From the NCBI GenBank assembly GCA_035307565.1, contig DATGHZ010000031.1:29061-93060 (forward strand): a DNA stretch of 64,000 nt. Reading direction: 5' to 3'. A program made the translations under genes and the position numbers. Under the pieces are notes generated by a model that saw only the letters and a list, made by a program, of their open reading frames with translations, was not told the DNA's origin and made no database searches. Source of the DNA: a bacterium. Lineage in GTDB: Bacteria > Sysuimicrobiota > Sysuimicrobiia > Sysuimicrobiales > Segetimicrobiaceae. The stretch's first letter is position 1. Each line of letters starts with the position of its first letter. Below, one piece after another: positions 1 to 4,812 of this stretch.

Positions 1-333
1 CATCCGCCCCAGCAACTGACCGCGGCGGACGACGACGCCGTTGACCTTCAGGCGTTTCTCGCCGGTCGCCCGATCGACGGCCACCTCGAGCACATCGCCC
101 CGCGGCTCGCGGACCTCGGCGCGCACGTACGCGCGGTCCTGACCGAACCGCACCAACTCCACGTCGGCCGAAGCCCGTGGGCTGCGCCCAAGGGACACGG
201 TGTACACGGCTTCGAGCAGATTGCTCTTGCCCTGGGCGTTCGCGCCGACGAGCGCGGTCATGCCCCGGTCGAACGCAAGATCCAGGTGCGCATAGTTCCG
301 GAAATCGCGGAGCCGCAGTTCAGCGAGCCACAA
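1..333 (-). CDS. recF: DNA replication/repair protein RecF, N-terminal part (3' end lies beyond window start)
   Basis: Minus-strand translation from TTG at 333: LWLAELRLRDFRNYAHLDLAFDRGMTALVGANAQGKSNLLEAVYTVSLGRSP..., Walker A GANAQGKSN. First in-frame start after an upstream TGA. Position after dnaN and yaaA is typical. Confidence 0.8.
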   Translation of the reverse strand, partial: MWLAELRLRDFRNYAHLDLAFDRGMTALVGANAQGKSNLLEAVYTVSLGRSPRASADVELVRFGQDRAYVRAEVREPRGDVLEVAVDRATGEKRLKVNGVVVRRGQLLGRM

Positions 334-577
334 TGACGTATTCCCTTCCGGCCGTGCTGACGCGGTCGCCCGGTGCGAGCTGACGCCCGCGCCGGCGTTC
401 CACGGTGCCGTTCACCCTCACGTCGCCGCTTTGGACCATGTGCTTCGCCCGGCCGCCGGTATCGGCGGCCCCGGCCCACTTCAGGAAGTCGCCCAGGGTG
501 ATCGCGGTGGTCTCGATTGCCACCTCACGCGGCGCCGTCCTACGAGTAGACGCGGACAGGCGCGAGGACATAGACAT
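320..577 (-). CDS. S4-domain RNA-binding protein (YaaA/RlbA-like)
   Basis: Track ORF, 85 aa; ...DFLKWAGAADTGGRAKHMVQSGDVRVNGTVERRRGRQLAPGDRV is an S4 fold motif. Sits between dnaN and recF as yaaA does in Bacillus. Confidence 0.7.
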   Translation of the reverse strand: MSMSSRLSASTRRTAPREVAIETTAITLGDFLKWAGAADTGGRAKHMVQSGDVRVNGTVERRRGRQLAPGDRVSTAGREYVIVAR

Positions 578-1652: not shown

Positions 1653-1861
1653 GCCCTCCTACGTAAAAACTCTTCTATAAAGATTCGTCGTAATAGTAGT
1701 AGAACCTGTGGATTATGTGAATATCGGTAGGGATGCGCGTAACGGCGCACTTTTCGGCCTGTGGATAACCATGCCGGGCCTGTATCAGGCACTCGGGCTG
1801 TTATCCCGATTGTACACTGCGAGCGGGAGGGGTGGCGTTGAAGCCCTTATCCGTGCACATG
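1653..1861. other. oriC: oriC segment between dnaA and dnaN: AT-rich unwinding element plus DnaA boxes
   Basis: AT-rich tract taaaaactcttctataaagattcgtcgtaatagtagtagaa (about 1661..1702) in a ~70% GC genome. DnaA-box matches: tgtggatta at 1707..1715, perfect tgtggataa (revcomp TTATCCACA) at 1760..1768, weaker ttatcccga at 1801 and ttatccgtg at 1847. Confidence 0.75.
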
Positions 1862-3271
1862 CTATCCCCGCGCTCCCGGGCGTTCGGTCCGGAAACTATC
1901 CACAAGACTTTGAATGCCGGCGTTGAGATGGGCGTCCTCGCCAAGCGCCTGTTTCACTCGATCGCACGCATGCATGACGGTCGTGTGATCACGGCCACCG
2001 AATTCTTCGCCGATTCGGGGCAGCGAGGCATCGGTCAGTTCGCGACACAGGTACATGGCCACCTGACGGGGGAAGGCCACGCCCTTGGTGCGACGCTTGG
2101 CCTTCATCTCTTCGATGCGGAGCCCGAAGAACTCCGATACGGCGCGCTGGATCGCCGGAATCGTCACCGGACGGATCCGTGCCTGCGGAAGCAGCTCTTT
2201 GAGGACGTCGGCCGCGAGGTCGACGGAAATCGGCGTGCGCGCCATTTCGGCGTGGGCCCGGAGGCGGCTCAGCGCCCCTTCCAGTTCCCGGATGTTCGAC
2301 GAGATGCGCTGCGCGATGTACTGTGCCACCTCGTCGGGTACGGCGATGTGGTCCTTTTCCGCTTTCTTGCGGAGGATGGCCACGCGGGTTTCGTAATCCG
2401 GCGGCTGGATGTCGGCGATGAGGCCCCACTCGAACCGTGAGCGCAGCCGGTCCTCGAGGGTCGGGATCTCACGCGGCGCCCGGTCGCTGCTGATGATGAG
2501 CTGCCGGCTGGACTCGTGGAGCGTGTTGAAGGTGTGGAAAAATTCCTCTTGCGTCCGCTCCTTGCCGGCCAGAAATTGGATGTCGTCGATGGCCAGGACG
2601 TCCACATTTCGGTAGCGGTGGCGGAACTCGACCATGCGGTCATCCCGGATCGCGTTGATCAGGTCGTTGGTAAAGCGCTCCGAGGACACGTACATCACCC
2701 GCGCCGCCGGCGAGTGACTGAGCACATTGTGGCCGATGGCCTGCAACAGGTGGGTTTTGCCGAGCCCCACGCCGCCGTAGATGAACAGCGGGTTGTAGGC
2801 GCGGGCCGGGGCCTCCGCAACGGCTTTCGCCGCCGCGTGCGCGAACCGGTTGCCGGCCCCGACGACGAAGGTATCGAACGTGTATTTGCCGGTCAGCGCG
2901 TGGCGTCCGTCGGCCGGGACGCCGTGGACGGCCGCGCCGGGTATCGCCGCCTCGGCGCGCCGCGCCACATCCACGCCGGCGACCACCCCGGCGCCGTGGC
3001 CGTTGCCGTCGCCGTCGGAGACAACAAACCGAATGTCGACGCCGCGGGTCAATACTTCGCGCAGCGTTTCCGCGATCAGCCCGCGGTAGCGGCCTTCCAG
3101 CCACTCTTTGGCGAACATGCTGGGCACGGAAAACACGAAGACGTCCCGGTCCAACGTCAGCGGCCGCATCGCCTTGAGAAAGGCTTCGAAGCTCGGCTTG
3201 CTGAGCTGGCTTTCGATGCGGGCAAGGGCCTCCTGCCAGACCTGACCCGCGGTGATGCTCTGTACGTCCAT
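1862..3271 (-). CDS. dnaA: Chromosomal replication initiator protein DnaA
   Basis: Track ORF, 469 aa: N-terminal domain, AAA+ Walker A GGVGLGKTHLLQAIG, C-terminal DNA-binding domain (...RTKGVAFPRQVAMYLCRELTD...). Confidence 0.97.
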   Translation of the reverse strand: MDVQSITAGQVWQEALARIESQLSKPSFEAFLKAMRPLTLDRDVFVFSVPSMFAKEWLEGRYRGLIAETLREVLTRGVDIRFVVSDGDGNGHGAGVVAGVDVARRAEAAIPGAAVHGVPADGRHALTGKYTFDTFVVGAGNRFAHAAAKAVAEAPARAYNPLFIYGGVGLGKTHLLQAIGHNVLSHSPAARVMYVSSERFTNDLINAIRDDRMVEFRHRYRNVDVLAIDDIQFLAGKERTQEEFFHTFNTLHESSRQLIISSDRAPREIPTLEDRLRSRFEWGLIADIQPPDYETRVAILRKKAEKDHIAVPDEVAQYIAQRISSNIRELEGALSRLRAHAEMARTPISVDLAADVLKELLPQARIRPVTIPAIQRAVSEFFGLRIEEMKAKRRTKGVAFPRQVAMYLCRELTDASLPRIGEEFGGRDHTTVMHACDRVKQALGEDAHLNAGIQSLVDSFRTERPGARG

Positions 3272-3311
3272 CCGACGGCTCCTCCCTCAGGCCCCCGTGC
3301 CGTGGTGTGCG

Positions 3312-4136
3312 CTACGCTTTGAAAACGGTGCCGAGGAACGCGATACCCTCTTCCGTGAGCGTCCGCTTCCCGGGATCGGCCGTCCCGACGGTGAGCAGAC
3401 GCATGCGCTGCAGCGAGGACAGCTCACGGAAGGCCGTGCTCTGGCTCAGGTTGAGCTCCTTGGCGATGGTGGAGGGCCCGGCCGCTCCAATCTCCGCGAT
3501 CAGCAGAAGAATCTTCTTCTGGCGGTCGGACAGCCGCGCGGCCGCCGCCGCGGCGAAAGGCGGTTCGGCGGCGCGCGTTTCGGGCGCCGCCGTGGAAGGC
3601 GCGGGAGCCTGCGCGGGCGGAGGCCCGACGCGGAGCGTCACGACCGTTCCGGTTCTCAGGTTGTTCTCGATCGTGATCGCGCCCCCGAGAAATCTCAACT
3701 GTTCCTGCGCGACCGGCAGGCCGGAGCCGACGCCCTTGATGAACCGCCGCATCTCACGCGTGGCCGTGGTGAATCCCGGCTCGAAGGCGCGCTGCTTGAC
3801 CTCGTCGGGAATGCCCGGCCCCTGGTCCGAGATCCGGATGGTGTTGCCGTCGTCCATGACCGTGACCACGGCGTCCTTGAAGTACGCGTGGATCAAGTTT
3901 TCCACGATCTCCTTGATGACGACGAAGGGAATGCGGCCGCCTCGTTCGCGCGCGTACCCGTGCGTGCGTGCCGACAACTCGCCGATGAGCTGATTGAAGT
4001 CCTCAGAAGAGAGCGAGACGACCTGCGGCGGTGCGAGCGGCGAATCGTAAATCGCGACGCGAACCTCGGGCGCCTGTGCCTCGGCCGGCGTCCCTTCCCC
4101 CTGTTGAGACACGAGTCGCAGGAAGACGTCCTGCAT
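3312..4136 (-). CDS. Uncharacterised GHKL-type (histidine-kinase-like) ATPase fused to a C-terminal winged HTH; sits between the oriC DnaA-box cluster and dnaA
   Basis: Track ORF, 274 aa. N box KEIVENLIHAYF, G1 DQGPGIP, G2 GVGSGLPVAQ, G3 RTGTVVTLR; no DHp/HisKA domain. Ala/Pro linker, then HTH LSDRQKKILLLIAEIGAAGPSTIAKELNLSQSTAFRELSSLQRMRLL. Stop is 40 nt upstream of the dnaA start. Confidence 0.7.
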   Translation of the reverse strand: MQDVFLRLVSQQGEGTPAEAQAPEVRVAIYDSPLAPPQVVSLSSEDFNQLIGELSARTHGYARERGGRIPFVVIKEIVENLIHAYFKDAVVTVMDDGNTIRISDQGPGIPDEVKQRAFEPGFTTATREMRRFIKGVGSGLPVAQEQLRFLGGAITIENNLRTGTVVTLRVGPPPAQAPAPSTAAPETRAAEPPFAAAAAARLSDRQKKILLLIAEIGAAGPSTIAKELNLSQSTAFRELSSLQRMRLLTVGTADPGKRTLTEEGIAFLGTVFKA

Positions 4137-4360
4137 TTACTCGGTTCCCCCGCGTGCGCACGGGTAGATTGGCGGCATGCCAGTGCTCTCCTTTTACTCC
4201 GGCTGTAGGTCGCACGCTTTCCGTACGTGCCGCTGACATGCCGCGATGCAGTTGACTCTGTGGAGAGCGGACCGGTGTGTTTTCGGCGGTTGGGCGCGAT
4301 GCTTGTCGCGGACGCGGTGTACAGCGTGTGTACTATGCGGACAACGGGCGGTGGAGCGCG

Positions 4361-4514
4361 TTGTCCACAGGTGTGGAAAAGATTGTGGATAATGGAAACC
4401 GACTCCTGCCGTCTTGCCGAAAAGTTACGACAACCCATCACGGAATCGTTACGACGCGCATCCCAGGCGATGCCCGGCCGGCGCAACTGTGGATAAGTAC
4501 CCCAACTATCCACA
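4361..4514. promoter_or_regulatory. oriC: DnaA-box cluster (upstream oriC module and dnaA-operon promoter region)
   Basis: ttgtccaca 4361..4369; tgtggaaaa 4372..4380; perfect tgtggataa 4384..4392; perfect tgtggataa 4488..4496; ctatccaca 4506..4514. The perfect boxes are reverse complements of TTATCCACA; the others have 1 mismatch. Confidence 0.8.
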
Positions 4515-4674
4515 GGTTATCAGCAGTTGCGCGAAAGCCTGACTTTCAAGCGCCGGCGGGCGGGTTTAGGGGGTGACAGAATCATTGAGCAATTACACCG
4601 CGGGGCGAGTTCGTGGACGGCCCAGGGCCAGTGTGTTATAGTCATTTGGTCCATAGGAGTGGAGGAGTCGCAGC

Positions 4675-4812
4675 GTGAAGCGGACGTTTCAGCCGAACCG
4701 CCGGCGCCGCGCCCGGACGCATGGGTTCCGGGCGAGGATGCGGACGCCCGGAGGTCGCAATGTGCTCCGCCGGCGCCGCCAGCGCGGCCGGCGCCGTCTC
4801 TCGCCCGCCTAG
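4675..4812 (+). CDS. rpmH: 50S ribosomal protein L34
   Basis: GTG start with RBS ggaggag 8 nt upstream; [45 protein letters not shown]; 45 aa, too short for the ORF track. Confidence 0.93.

What the first reader, a model, noticed from the sequence alone, without database searches (positions are those of the whole stretch)
3312..4675. A GHKL-ATPase/winged-HTH gene is wedged between the origin's DnaA-box cluster and dnaA
In the canonical Gram-positive origin, rpmH and dnaA are divergent and the DnaA-box module abuts dnaA. Here an 825-nt gene (3312..4136, minus) sits between the boxes (4361..4514) and dnaA, and stops only 40 nt before the dnaA start. It is therefore most likely the first gene of the dnaA-dnaN operon, transcribed from the DnaA-box region. 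Its product has a complete histidine-kinase-like ATPase catalytic core (N, G1, G2 and G3 boxes) but no DHp/phosphoacceptor domain, like the anti-sigma-factor kinases RsbW and SpoIIAB. This is fused through an Ala/Pro linker to a C-terminal winged HTH. An ATP-binding DNA-binding protein encoded inside oriC and co-expressed with the initiator is a plausible, undescribed regulator of replication initiation or of the dnaA promoter.
Basis: partly seen in the sequence, partly recalled or inferred. Interest (0 to 1): 0.78.

Follow-up and report, generated by a model that had tools for sequence, protein, structure and literature searches.

The report
ATPase–DNA-binding gene heading the dnaA operon
A previously undescribed protein (an ATP-binding module fused to a DNA-binding module) sits between the replication initiator gene dnaA and its usual control sites in bacteria of at least three phyla, which makes it a strong but untested candidate regulator of chromosome replication.

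Summary
ORF 3312-4136(-) encodes a 274-aa protein. It has a family-specific N-terminal module, an intact histidine-kinase-type ATP-binding domain with no phospho-acceptor His domain, a disordered Ala/Pro linker and a C-terminal winged helix. It ends 40 nt before dnaA. All nine DnaA boxes in the 64-kb window lie at 1707-4514, and five of them are upstream of this gene. The gene belongs to a sharply bounded family: about 364 clusters at 50% identity, annotated only as "ATP-binding protein". In every one of 80 genome loci with enough flank the order is rpmH<- X-> dnaA-> dnaN->. These come from Sysuimicrobiota/CSP1-3, Actinomycetota (including Atopobiaceae) and Bacillota/Clostridia MAGs. The X-dnaA gap is short (median 39 nt, sometimes overlapping). 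X is about as conserved as DnaA. The unwinding module (paired boxes, TAG trios, AT-rich tract) lies in the dnaA-dnaN spacer, so the origin is bipartite as in B. subtilis, and X and dnaA both sit between the two box clusters. In genomes without X, the same box palindrome lies about 49 nt from dnaA. X is therefore inserted between dnaA and its operator. Co-transcription and a role in initiation or dnaA expression are strong inferences, not demonstrated facts. No literature on the family was found.

The parts
3312..4136 (-). Gene X: 274-aa GHKL-ATPase/winged-helix protein, including its TAG stop at 3312-3314
   Evidence: ORF listed. HATPase_c E = 4e-15. 1523 homologues; 364 clusters at 50% identity with E <= 1e-30. 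AF2 model with mean pLDDT 89.7.
3927..4136 (-). N-terminal family-specific module (aa 1-70): helix 2-12, beta-hairpin 24-43, helix 47-64
   Evidence: Secondary structure from the AF2 model. A28, Y30, P37, G66 and P70 are conserved in at least 90% of 115 members. No Pfam model matches this part. No conserved His.
3627..3926 (-). Histidine-kinase-type ATP-binding (Bergerat fold) domain, aa 71-170: N box E76/N80/H83, G1 D104-G106-G108, G2 G135-G137-G139, G3 G163
3537..3626 (-). Ala/Pro-rich disordered linker, aa 171-200; its length varies across the family
   Evidence: pLDDT below 50 for residues 187-198. Family members range from about 205 to about 490 aa, and many of the longer ones match the profile in two separate stretches, i.e. 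the extra length lies between the domains. Unaligned region.
3315..3536 (-). C-terminal winged helix-turn-helix, aa 201-274. Recognition helix 232-244 (S231, S233, T234, A235, R237); wing G256-K257-R258-T259-L260-T261
3272..3311 (-). 40-nt X-dnaA spacer carrying the dnaA Shine-Dalgarno sequence (GGGAGGAG); no terminator-like site
   Evidence: Sequence; terminator scan. Across 74 loci the gap has a median of 39 nt and ranges from -7 to 98.
1862..3271 (-). dnaA (469 aa)
   Evidence: Pfam Bac_DnaA 7e-76, Bac_DnaA_C, DnaA_N.
1660..1768 (-). Unwinding module of B. subtilis BUS type in the dnaA-dnaN spacer: box 1760-1768; co-oriented box pair 1707-1715 and 1716-1724; spacer AACC; TAA/TAG trios 1691-1702 (read on the + strand); AT-rich tract 1660-1690
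   Evidence: Sequence; boxes. Conserved across related loci. Lowest GC in this part of the window, 51-53%. BUS definition from PMC10721633.
540..1652 (-). dnaN (370 aa)
   Evidence: Three DNA_pol3_beta domains.
4361..4514 (.). Upstream DnaA-box cluster: boxes at 4361-4369, 4372-4380, 4384-4392, 4488-4496 and 4506-4514. The first two form a head-to-head palindrome at 4361-4380
   Evidence: An exact TCCACA-N2-TGTGGA pair is present in 39 of 78 loci, about 240 nt upstream of the X start in Sysuimicrobiota-type loci.
4137..4360 (-). Leader or promoter region of X. Features: a degenerate box CTCTCCACA (4259-4267); a clade-conserved element CGGCATGTCAGCGGCAC (about 4227-4243); an SD-like AAGGAG; a 13-codon uORF (4137-4178) whose TAA stop abuts the X ATG
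   Evidence: Phylogenetic footprints. uORF analysis. No consensus RNA fold. No Rfam hit. No sigma-70 consensus site on this strand.
4614..4812 (+). Divergent rpmH: promoter-like site 4614-4642 (TGGACG-17-TG-TATAGT) and CDS 4675-4812
   Evidence: Promoter scan; Ribosomal_L34 5.6e-20. The -10 region is conserved in relatives.

Best explanation
Gene X encodes a member of an uncharacterised, chromosomally encoded protein family. The family is vertically inherited with the origin region.

The protein is built from four parts:
- a small family-specific N-terminal module;
- a histidine-kinase-type ATP-binding domain that has every ATP/Mg-binding motif but no phospho-acceptor domain;
- a flexible linker;
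- a winged-helix DNA-binding domain.

Shown:
- The gene lies between the autoregulatory DnaA-box cluster and dnaA in a bipartite, B. subtilis-type origin.
- This position is kept in every sampled genome that has the gene, across three phyla.

Inferred, strongly:
- X is the first cistron of an X-dnaA-dnaN operon driven from the DnaA-box-controlled promoter. It would therefore be made in step with DnaA and DnaN and be under DnaA autoregulation.

Inferred, mechanism:
- X works as a one-component, nucleotide-gated DNA-binding regulator. ATP binding or hydrolysis in the GHKL domain would change its oligomeric or conformational state. That change would alter how the tethered winged helices bind DNA in the origin/dnaA-promoter region.
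- In this way X would tune dnaA-operon transcription and/or DnaA assembly on the upstream box cluster according to the cell's nucleotide or energy state.
For: Anatomy:
- HATPase_c E = 4e-15, matched by 115 of 115 members.
- Invariant N80, D104, G106, G108, G135, G137, G139 and G163; E76 in at least 90% of 115 diverse members.
- AF2 model with mean pLDDT 89.7.
- The recognition helix and wing are among the most conserved segments, which suggests a conserved nucleic-acid target.

Context:
- All nine DnaA boxes of the window lie in 1707-4514.
- All 80 genome loci with enough flank show rpmH<- X-> dnaA-> dnaN->. The same order is seen in an Atopobiaceae contig and a Clostridia contig.
- Boxes lie upstream of X (median 4 per spacer) and almost none lie within X. 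The X-dnaA gap has a median of 39 nt and overlaps dnaA in some lineages.
- There is no terminator between X and dnaA.

Control:
- The head-to-head box palindrome lies a median of about 49 nt upstream of dnaA in 71 metagenomic loci without X. In X genomes it lies about 240 nt upstream of X. X is therefore inserted between dnaA and its operator.

Selection:
- Mean identity to the window proteins is X 58%, DnaA 62.5%, DnaN 54%, YidC 47% and RnpA 47%.
- In the other phyla it is X 47%, DnaA 45% and DnaN 33%.
- X identity tracks DnaA identity (Spearman rho 0.83).

Other:
- No full-length relatives were found on plasmids or phages.
- The family is sharply bounded: 364 clusters at E <= 1e-30 and 499 at E <= 1e-10.
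Against: - There are no transcript data, so a dnaA-specific promoter inside the 3' end of X cannot be excluded.
- No sigma-70-like promoter was found upstream of X.
- No conserved candidate operator other than DnaA boxes was found upstream. The one palindrome is a general dnaA feature, not specific to X.
- Histidine-kinase CA domains on their own are poor ATPases and normally act as kinases. A pure ATP-switch role is therefore an analogy (SpoIIAB nucleotide-dependent partner binding; sensor-plus-wHTH proteins such as Csa3), not a tested property.
- Dimerisation could not be modelled.
- Conserved position next to dnaA shows linkage, not function.
Confidence: 0.5

Rival explanations
1. X is a protein kinase or partner-switching factor rather than a simple ATP-gated DNA binder. 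Its DHp-less kinase-type domain would phosphorylate, or bind in a nucleotide-dependent way, a protein partner. The most attractive partner is DnaA itself, or another origin-bound protein. The winged helix would merely tether X at the origin. This would resemble how SpoIIAB/RsbW and the mitochondrial PDK/BCKDK kinases use the same fold.
For: - The catalytic domain is of kinase type, not MutL/GyrB type: PF02518 matches 115 of 115 members and HATPase_c_3 matches 1 of 115.
- The best sequence and fold matches include KinB, CheA, BCKDK/PDK, HK853 and SpoIIAB.
- E76 and the full ATP-lid/G2 motifs are conserved.
- The conserved N-terminal module (A28, Y30, P37, G66, P70) could be a partner-binding surface.
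- Production in step with DnaA, implied by the operon position, is what a stoichiometric partner would need.
Against: - No substrate-like gene (STAS protein, response regulator) is conserved next to X; the neighbours are only rpmH, dnaA and dnaN.
- The anti-sigma kinase model PF13581 matches 1 of 115 members.
- There is no conserved His, and no obviously invariant Ser or Thr acceptor family-wide, in the N-terminal module.
- No interaction evidence of any kind is available.
Confidence: 0.2
2. X is a housekeeping transcription factor or nucleoid/segregation factor whose targets lie elsewhere in the genome. Its place at the head of the dnaA operon would only secure growth-coupled, origin-proximal expression. 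It would have no direct role in initiation or dnaA control.
For: - No X-specific motif was detected in the origin spacers.
- The only conserved palindrome is a general DnaA feature.
- The winged helix resembles generic MarR, ArsR, IclR and Csa3 regulators.
- Other non-replication genes (rnpA, yidC, jag, rsmG, the S4-domain yaaA-like gene) are also stably linked to the origin region.
Against: - Placement is strict: between operator and dnaA rather than merely nearby. It is kept in three phyla with gaps as small as -7 to 40 nt.
- X is conserved at the level of DnaA and co-varies with it. This is stronger linkage than for the other origin-proximal genes.
- No copy was found away from dnaA among the 80 loci.
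Confidence: 0.2
3. The ORF is not a functional gene. It would be a chance ORF in GC-rich DNA or a decaying remnant.
For: GC-rich DNA produces many long spurious ORFs; many overlapping ORFs are listed.
Against: - 1523 homologues, at 60-100% identity among the top 120.
- ATP-binding motifs invariant in 115 diverse members.
- A confident fold.
- Conservation equal to that of DnaA.
Confidence: 0.01

Closest known systems
Catalytic (CA, HATPase_c) domain of two-component sensor histidine kinases, e.g. ThkA, HK853, CpxA, KinB, CheA P4
   Different: There is no DHp/HisKA domain, no conserved phospho-acceptor His, no sensor or transmembrane part and no adjacent response regulator. Instead the domain is fused to a winged helix and preceded by a hairpin-plus-helix module specific to this family.
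Anti-sigma-factor Ser kinases SpoIIAB / RsbW (PF13581)
   Different: The PF13581 model matches 1 of 115 members. No STAS or sigma-factor genes lie nearby. X carries a DNA-binding domain that these kinases lack.
DIP2311 of Corynebacterium diphtheriae (PDB 3lmm; an uncharacterised protein in the PDB)
   Different: About 17% identity. DIP2311 is about 490-555 aa, so it has large additional parts that X lacks. No Pfam model other than HATPase_c and wHTH families matched X at E <= 1. X keeps canonical kinase-type ATP motifs. DIP2311 has no known function and no known link to dnaA.
Sensor-plus-winged-helix one-component regulators, e.g. Csa3/CasR (CARF + wHTH) and MarR/IclR/ArsR families
   Different: The sensor here is a GHKL ATP-binding domain, joined through a long disordered linker. 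No member of those families is known to occupy the dnaA operon.
Known regulators of DnaA/oriC (YabA, SirA, Soj, DnaD, Spo0A in Bacillus; Hda, DiaA, SeqA in E. coli; HobA; MtrA; CtrA) and DnaA autoregulation of the B. subtilis dnaA-dnaN operon
   Same: The genomic logic is similar: the upstream incAB-like box cluster with the promoter, dnaA between two box clusters, and the unwinding module in the dnaA-dnaN spacer (PMC10721633). A further replication factor encoded in the same gene cluster has a precedent in Rv0004 (PMC5720831, by its title and abstract as listed).
   Different: X shows no sequence or fold similarity to any of these. As far as I know, none of them is a GHKL protein and none is encoded between the DnaA boxes and dnaA.

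Membership tests
Two-component sensor histidine kinase | HATPase_c catalytic domain with N, G1, G2 (and G3) boxes | tested here: met
   PF02518 E = 4e-15. Motif residues are invariant in 115 members.
Two-component sensor histidine kinase | DHp/HisKA dimerisation domain with a conserved phospho-acceptor His | tested here: not met
   No HisKA-type Pfam hit at E <= 1. Only about 70 residues precede the CA domain. H59 is replaced by Tyr in relatives. No His in that part is conserved in A2.
Two-component sensor histidine kinase | Cognate response regulator, usually adjacent | tested here: not met
   The neighbours are rpmH and dnaA in all loci.
Anti-sigma-factor Ser kinases (SpoIIAB/RsbW) | Match to the HATPase_c_2 model (PF13581) | tested here: not met
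   Absent at E <= 1 for the window protein. It matches 1 of 115 members.
Anti-sigma-factor Ser kinases (SpoIIAB/RsbW) | Operon with an anti-anti-sigma (STAS) protein and a sigma factor | tested here: not met
   No such genes flank X.
Anti-sigma-factor Ser kinases (SpoIIAB/RsbW) | Stand-alone GHKL fold of about 145 aa without DHp | tested here: inconclusive
Anti-sigma-factor Ser kinases (SpoIIAB/RsbW) | Ser-kinase activity on a partner and nucleotide-dependent partner binding | not testable with these tools
   Needs biochemistry.
DIP2311-like proteins (PDB 3lmm) | Full-length correspondence to the 490-555 aa protein, including its parts outside the GHKL-like and wHTH domains | tested here: not met
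DIP2311-like proteins (PDB 3lmm) | GHKL-like domain followed by a C-terminal winged helix | tested here: met
MutL/GyrB/Hsp90/MORC-type GHKL ATPases | HATPase_c_3-type domain plus a transducer (S5-fold) domain carrying the catalytic Lys | tested here: not met
   HATPase_c_3 scores only E = 0.13 and matches 1 of 115 members. No second domain lies between the ATPase and the linker. The ExxxN...A spacing of the N box is similar, by direct reading of the sequence.
Winged-helix (MarR/IclR/ArsR-like) DNA-binding domains | Three-helix bundle with recognition helix and beta-wing | tested here: met
Bipartite B. subtilis-type oriC (the context) | DnaA-box cluster upstream of the dnaA transcription unit, divergent from rpmH | tested here: met
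   Five boxes at 4361-4514. Conserved in relatives.
Bipartite B. subtilis-type oriC (the context) | BUS in the dnaA-dnaN spacer: co-oriented box pair, DnaA-trios (5'-TAG), AT-rich tract | tested here: met
   Positions 1660-1724. Conserved across about 55 loci. Definition from PMC10721633. Function was not tested.
Operon X-dnaA-dnaN | Single transcript from a promoter in or next to the box cluster | not testable with these tools
   Indirect support only: gaps of median 39 nt, with overlaps in some loci; no terminator; operator displaced upstream of X.

The most novel reading that the evidence does not exclude
X is a new class of replication-initiation regulator. In this reading it is an ATP-gated, origin-tethered GHKL protein that acts directly on DnaA, either by phosphorylation or by nucleotide-dependent binding that controls DnaA oligomerisation on the upstream box cluster. 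It would couple origin firing and dnaA autoregulation to cellular energy state. It would be conserved from the uncultivated phylum Sysuimicrobiota to gut Atopobiaceae and Clostridia.
Probability: 0.25. Interest if true: 0.88.

Novelty: new variant of a known kind. Interest (0 to 1): 0.7.

Why it matters
Outside E. coli, Bacillus and Caulobacter, the factors that control DnaA are largely unknown. The known regulators are lineage-specific and unrelated to one another.

This gene is as conserved as DnaA itself. It is locked between dnaA and its operator in at least three phyla, and it combines an ATP sensor or kinase module with a DNA-binding module. That gives a concrete, testable candidate for how these lineages regulate initiation or dnaA expression. 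The lineages include an entirely uncultivated phylum and human-gut Atopobiaceae.

It also has practical consequences. In these genomes the DnaA-box cluster does not abut dnaA, so origin-prediction and annotation pipelines should treat rpmH-X-dnaA as a variant origin layout. At present the protein is annotated only as "ATP-binding protein".

Tried and rejected
1. The head-to-head DnaA-box palindrome (4361-4380) as an operator specific to X. Rejected. A metagenome scan found it next to dnaA in 71 loci without X, and with X in only 2 of 120 loci.
2. A conserved RNA structure or riboswitch in the X leader. RNAalifold gave no consensus pairs on 30 leaders. Rfam gave nothing.
3. A conserved leader peptide. 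The 13-codon uORF is limited to the window's clade. Elsewhere the frame and peptide differ or no start codon exists.
4. A sigma-54-like reading of CGGCAYGTCAGCGGCA. The GG is not invariant and one locus has an indel in the spacer, so this was dropped.
5. A sigma-70 promoter upstream of X. No consensus match on the minus strand.
6. K-mer motif discovery with boxes masked. Only the rpmH -10 region and a GTGAAA motif rose above the GC-rich background. No candidate palindromic operator appeared.
7. Extra N-terminal domains in longer family members. None found; these are probably mis-called starts or low-complexity sequence.
8. Anti-sigma kinase membership. Not supported.
9. Defence-system or mobile-element origin. 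PADLOC hits cover only the wHTH. There are no full-length relatives on plasmids or phages.
10. AFDB fold search. The library was unavailable.
11. GC skew. Too weak in this window to locate the origin.
12. Literature. Six searches aimed at this gene found nothing on the family.
Full report

Yes. The ORF at 3312-4136 on the minus strand encodes 274 aa from an ATG start. Its TAG stop lies 40 nt before the dnaA ATG at 3271. That spacer holds only a GGGAGGAG ribosome-binding site and no terminator-like site.

Pfam confirms the neighbours: dnaA (1862-3271), dnaN (540-1652) and the divergent rpmH (4675-4812).

TTATCCACA with up to one mismatch occurs nine times in the 64-kb window, against a mean of 2.9 in shuffles (0 of 100 shuffles reach nine). 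All nine lie in 1707-4514.

**2. What is the protein?**

- **ATP-binding domain.** HATPase_c (PF02518) matches residues 73-170 at E = 4e-15. In an alignment of 115 diverse members, N80, H83, D104, G106, G108, G135, G137, G139, N159 and G163 are invariant. E76 is present in at least 90% of them. The ATP/Mg site is therefore intact family-wide. The alignment to KinB and CheA catalytic domains shows the G1, F-like, G2 and G3 correspondences.
- **No phospho-acceptor.** No HisKA/DHp model matches. The only His upstream of the domain (H59) is Tyr in relatives.
- **Predicted structure.** An AlphaFold2 model built on the 115-sequence alignment is confident, with mean pLDDT 89.7. It shows helix 2-12, a beta-hairpin 24-43 and helix 47-64, which together form a module specific to this family. 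Then come the Bergerat fold (71-170), a disordered Ala/Pro linker (about 171-200) and a winged helix (204-273).
- **Family-wide domain scan.** All 115 members match PF02518 and most match wHTH models. Only one member matches the anti-sigma kinase model PF13581, and one matches HATPase_c_3. By sequence, the ATPase is of histidine-kinase type rather than RsbW/SpoIIAB type.
- **No specific family model.** NCBIfam has none. Public annotations read "ATP-binding protein" or generic regulator names.

**3. How widespread is it, and how constant is the context?**

- **Size of the family.** The word-indexed search found 1523 homologues; the top 120 are 60-100% identical and about 265 aa long. A profile search of 1.84 billion cluster representatives found 364 clusters at E <= 1e-30 and 499 at E <= 1e-10. 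Beyond that come generic kinase domains, giving 3881 clusters at E <= 1e-3. The family is therefore well delimited. Members range from about 205 to about 490 aa, and many of the longer ones match the profile in two separate stretches.
- **Genome scan.** Of 163 confirmed hits, the best 80 were kept. Their record titles name Sysuimicrobiota/CSP1-3 genera, 'ANGP1', MAGs labelled Armatimonadota, Actinomycetota, Coriobacteriia, and Clostridia/Bacillota.
- **Gene order.** Every locus with enough flank shows rpmH<- X-> dnaA-> dnaN->. An Atopobiaceae contig and a Clostridia contig show the same order.
- **Spacing across 74 loci.** The rpmH-X spacer has a median length of 505 nt and a median of four DnaA boxes. 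X itself has essentially none. The X-dnaA gap has a median of 39 nt and ranges from -7 to 98.
- **Conservation.** Mean identity to the window proteins is X 58%, DnaA 62.5%, DnaN 54%, YidC 47% and RnpA 47%. In the loci from other phyla it is X 47%, DnaA 45% and DnaN 33%. X identity tracks DnaA identity (rho 0.83). This indicates strong purifying selection and co-inheritance with the origin.
- **Not mobile.** No full-length relatives exist in the plasmid or phage collections.

**4. What kind of origin is this?**

The dnaA-dnaN spacer carries, on the dnaA-coding strand, two abutting co-oriented boxes (1716-1724 and 1707-1715). These are followed by a short GC spacer, CTA/TAG trinucleotide repeats (1691-1702) and an AT-rich tract (1660-1690). 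This arrangement is conserved across about 55 related loci. It is also the GC minimum of this part of the window.

It matches the basal unwinding system described for B. subtilis, where the layout is rpmH-incAB-dnaA-incC-dnaN (PMC10721633). The origin is therefore bipartite. X is not inside the unwinding element. Like dnaA, it lies between the two box clusters.

**5. Is X really wedged between dnaA and its control region?**

The upstream cluster contains a head-to-head box palindrome, TTGTCCACA-GG-TGTGGAAAA, at 4361-4380. An exact TCCACA-N2-TGTGGA pair occurs in 39 of 78 rpmH-X spacers, and only with a 2-bp spacing. In the Sysuimicrobiota-type loci it lies 237-251 nt upstream of the X start.

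I tested whether this palindrome could be an operator specific to X by scanning metagenomes for TTWTCCACANNTGTGGAWAA. The scan stopped at 120 loci:

- 71 have dnaA starting a median of about 49 nt downstream and no X.
- Only 2 have X.
- 47 have neither gene in the sequence held; in 23 of these the palindrome lies within 600 nt of a contig end.

The palindrome is thus a widespread dnaA operator, not a site for X. The control also gives a positive result. In the usual layout the operator abuts dnaA, and in X genomes the same operator precedes X. Together with the very short or overlapping X-dnaA gaps, this is the best available evidence that X heads the dnaA-dnaN transcription unit. It remains an inference, because no transcript data are available.

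**6. The leader of X**

Footprinting shows several conserved elements: a degenerate box (CTCTCCACA, 4259-4267), a clade-conserved element CGGCAYGTCAGCGGCA (about 4227-4243), and an SD-like AAGGAG. Across the phylum, the motifs GTGAAA, GGTAGGAGT and GCGGCCAAC recur at about -95, -57 and -40.

In the window, a 13-codon uORF (4137-4178, MPPIYPCARGGTE) ends with a TAA stop that abuts the X ATG. Close relatives have similar uORFs. Elsewhere the frame and peptide are not conserved, or no start codon exists.

RNAalifold found no consensus structure and Rfam found nothing. No sigma-70 consensus promoter was found on this strand. These features remain unexplained.

**7. How does it most likely work?**

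- **Shown.** The protein has an intact ATP-binding kinase-type domain, a canonical winged helix whose recognition helix and wing are highly conserved, and a flexible tether. Its position at the head of dnaA is obligatory in the genomes sampled.
- **Inferred.** X is co-expressed with DnaA and DnaN under DnaA autoregulation. It acts as a nucleotide-gated DNA-binding regulator of the dnaA promoter or the upstream box cluster.
- **Main rival.** X is a kinase or partner-switch protein acting on DnaA or another origin protein. This rival uses the same facts and differs only in the output step.
- **Weaker rival.** X is a generic regulator that uses this position only for growth-coupled expression.
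- **Limits.** I could not find a candidate operator specific to X. Dimerisation and X-DnaA interfaces could not be modelled with the tools available.

**8. Comparison with known families, and novelty**

X fails the defining tests for several families:

- Sensor histidine kinases: no DHp/His domain and no response regulator.
- Anti-sigma kinases: no PF13581 match and no STAS or sigma-factor partners.
- MutL/GyrB-type GHKL ATPases: no transducer domain.
- DIP2311-like proteins: X is far shorter, and only 173 residues align at 17% identity.

It shares only the fold and the GHKL-then-wHTH order with DIP2311, which is itself uncharacterised. It resembles none of the known DnaA regulators.

Six full-text literature searches aimed at this gene found no description of the family or of a gene between the boxes and dnaA. 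A seventh search showed that the main host phylum, Sysuimicrobiota/CSP1-3, is reported as uncultivated (PMC11604079).

I class X as a new variant of a known kind: a one-component regulator assembled from known domains, in an unprecedented and strictly conserved origin context. There is a substantial chance that it represents a new class of initiation regulator.

**9. Verdict**

Interest is 0.70.

Noticed in passing
window 4361-4380; loci L084-L203: The head-to-head DnaA-box palindrome TTWTCCACA-NN-TGTGGAWAA is a widespread element immediately upstream of dnaA. The distance to the dnaA start has a median of about 49 nt in 71 metagenomic loci that lack gene X. Within the rpmH-X spacers of X genomes, only the 2-bp spacing occurs (39 of 78 loci); no other spacing from 0 to 7 bp and no tail-to-tail pair was found.
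   Followed up: yes
window 4137-4178 (-): A 13-codon upstream ORF (MPPIYPCARGGTE) has a strong AAGGAG Shine-Dalgarno sequence, and its TAA stop directly abuts the ATG of gene X. Similar uORFs occur in L001 and L003-L005. In roughly 20 loci, short ORFs end 0-19 nt past the X start. The peptide and frame are not conserved, and many loci lack a start codon. This may reflect translational coupling or regulation.
   Followed up: partly
window about 4180-4270 (-); loci L001-L061, -100 to -35 relative to the X start: Linear motifs are conserved in the X leader across Sysuimicrobiota-type loci: a DnaA box at about -130, then GTGAAA(T/A), GGTAGGAGT and GCGGCCAAC. The window's clade has CGGCAYGTCAGCGGCA instead of the short hairpin-like segment. 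RNAalifold finds no consensus fold and Rfam has no match. Their function (promoter, operator or standby site) is unknown.
   Followed up: partly
window 1660-1768 (dnaA-dnaN spacer): A complete unwinding module of B. subtilis BUS type: box 1760-1768; abutting co-oriented boxes 1707-1715 and 1716-1724; spacer AACC; TAA/TAG trios 1691-1702; AT-rich tract 1660-1690. It is conserved in about 55 related loci. The actual site of DNA opening is therefore downstream of dnaA, not in the box cluster next to gene X.
   Followed up: yes
window 2728-2779 (+), inside dnaA: A weak, sub-threshold Rfam match to AsdA, the antisense RNA of Salmonella dnaA mRNA (30.4 bits against a gathering score of 52; E = 0.004). 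It most likely reflects conservation of the dnaA coding sequence rather than a real antisense RNA.
   Followed up: no
window 320-577 (-): An 85-aa ORF downstream of dnaN overlaps the dnaN 3' end (540-577). It looks like the S4-domain YaaA/RlbA-type protein. An S4_2 gene follows dnaN in the Clostridia locus L082. This adds to the Bacillus-like layout of the origin region.
   Followed up: no
loci L085, L114 and others among L084-L203: Some metagenomic dnaA loci without gene X have DnaA 50-56% identical to the window's DnaA. That is close to the DnaA identity of the more distant X-carrying Sysuimicrobiota loci (56-69%). X may therefore have been gained or lost among fairly close lineages. The taxonomy of these contigs is unknown.
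   Followed up: no
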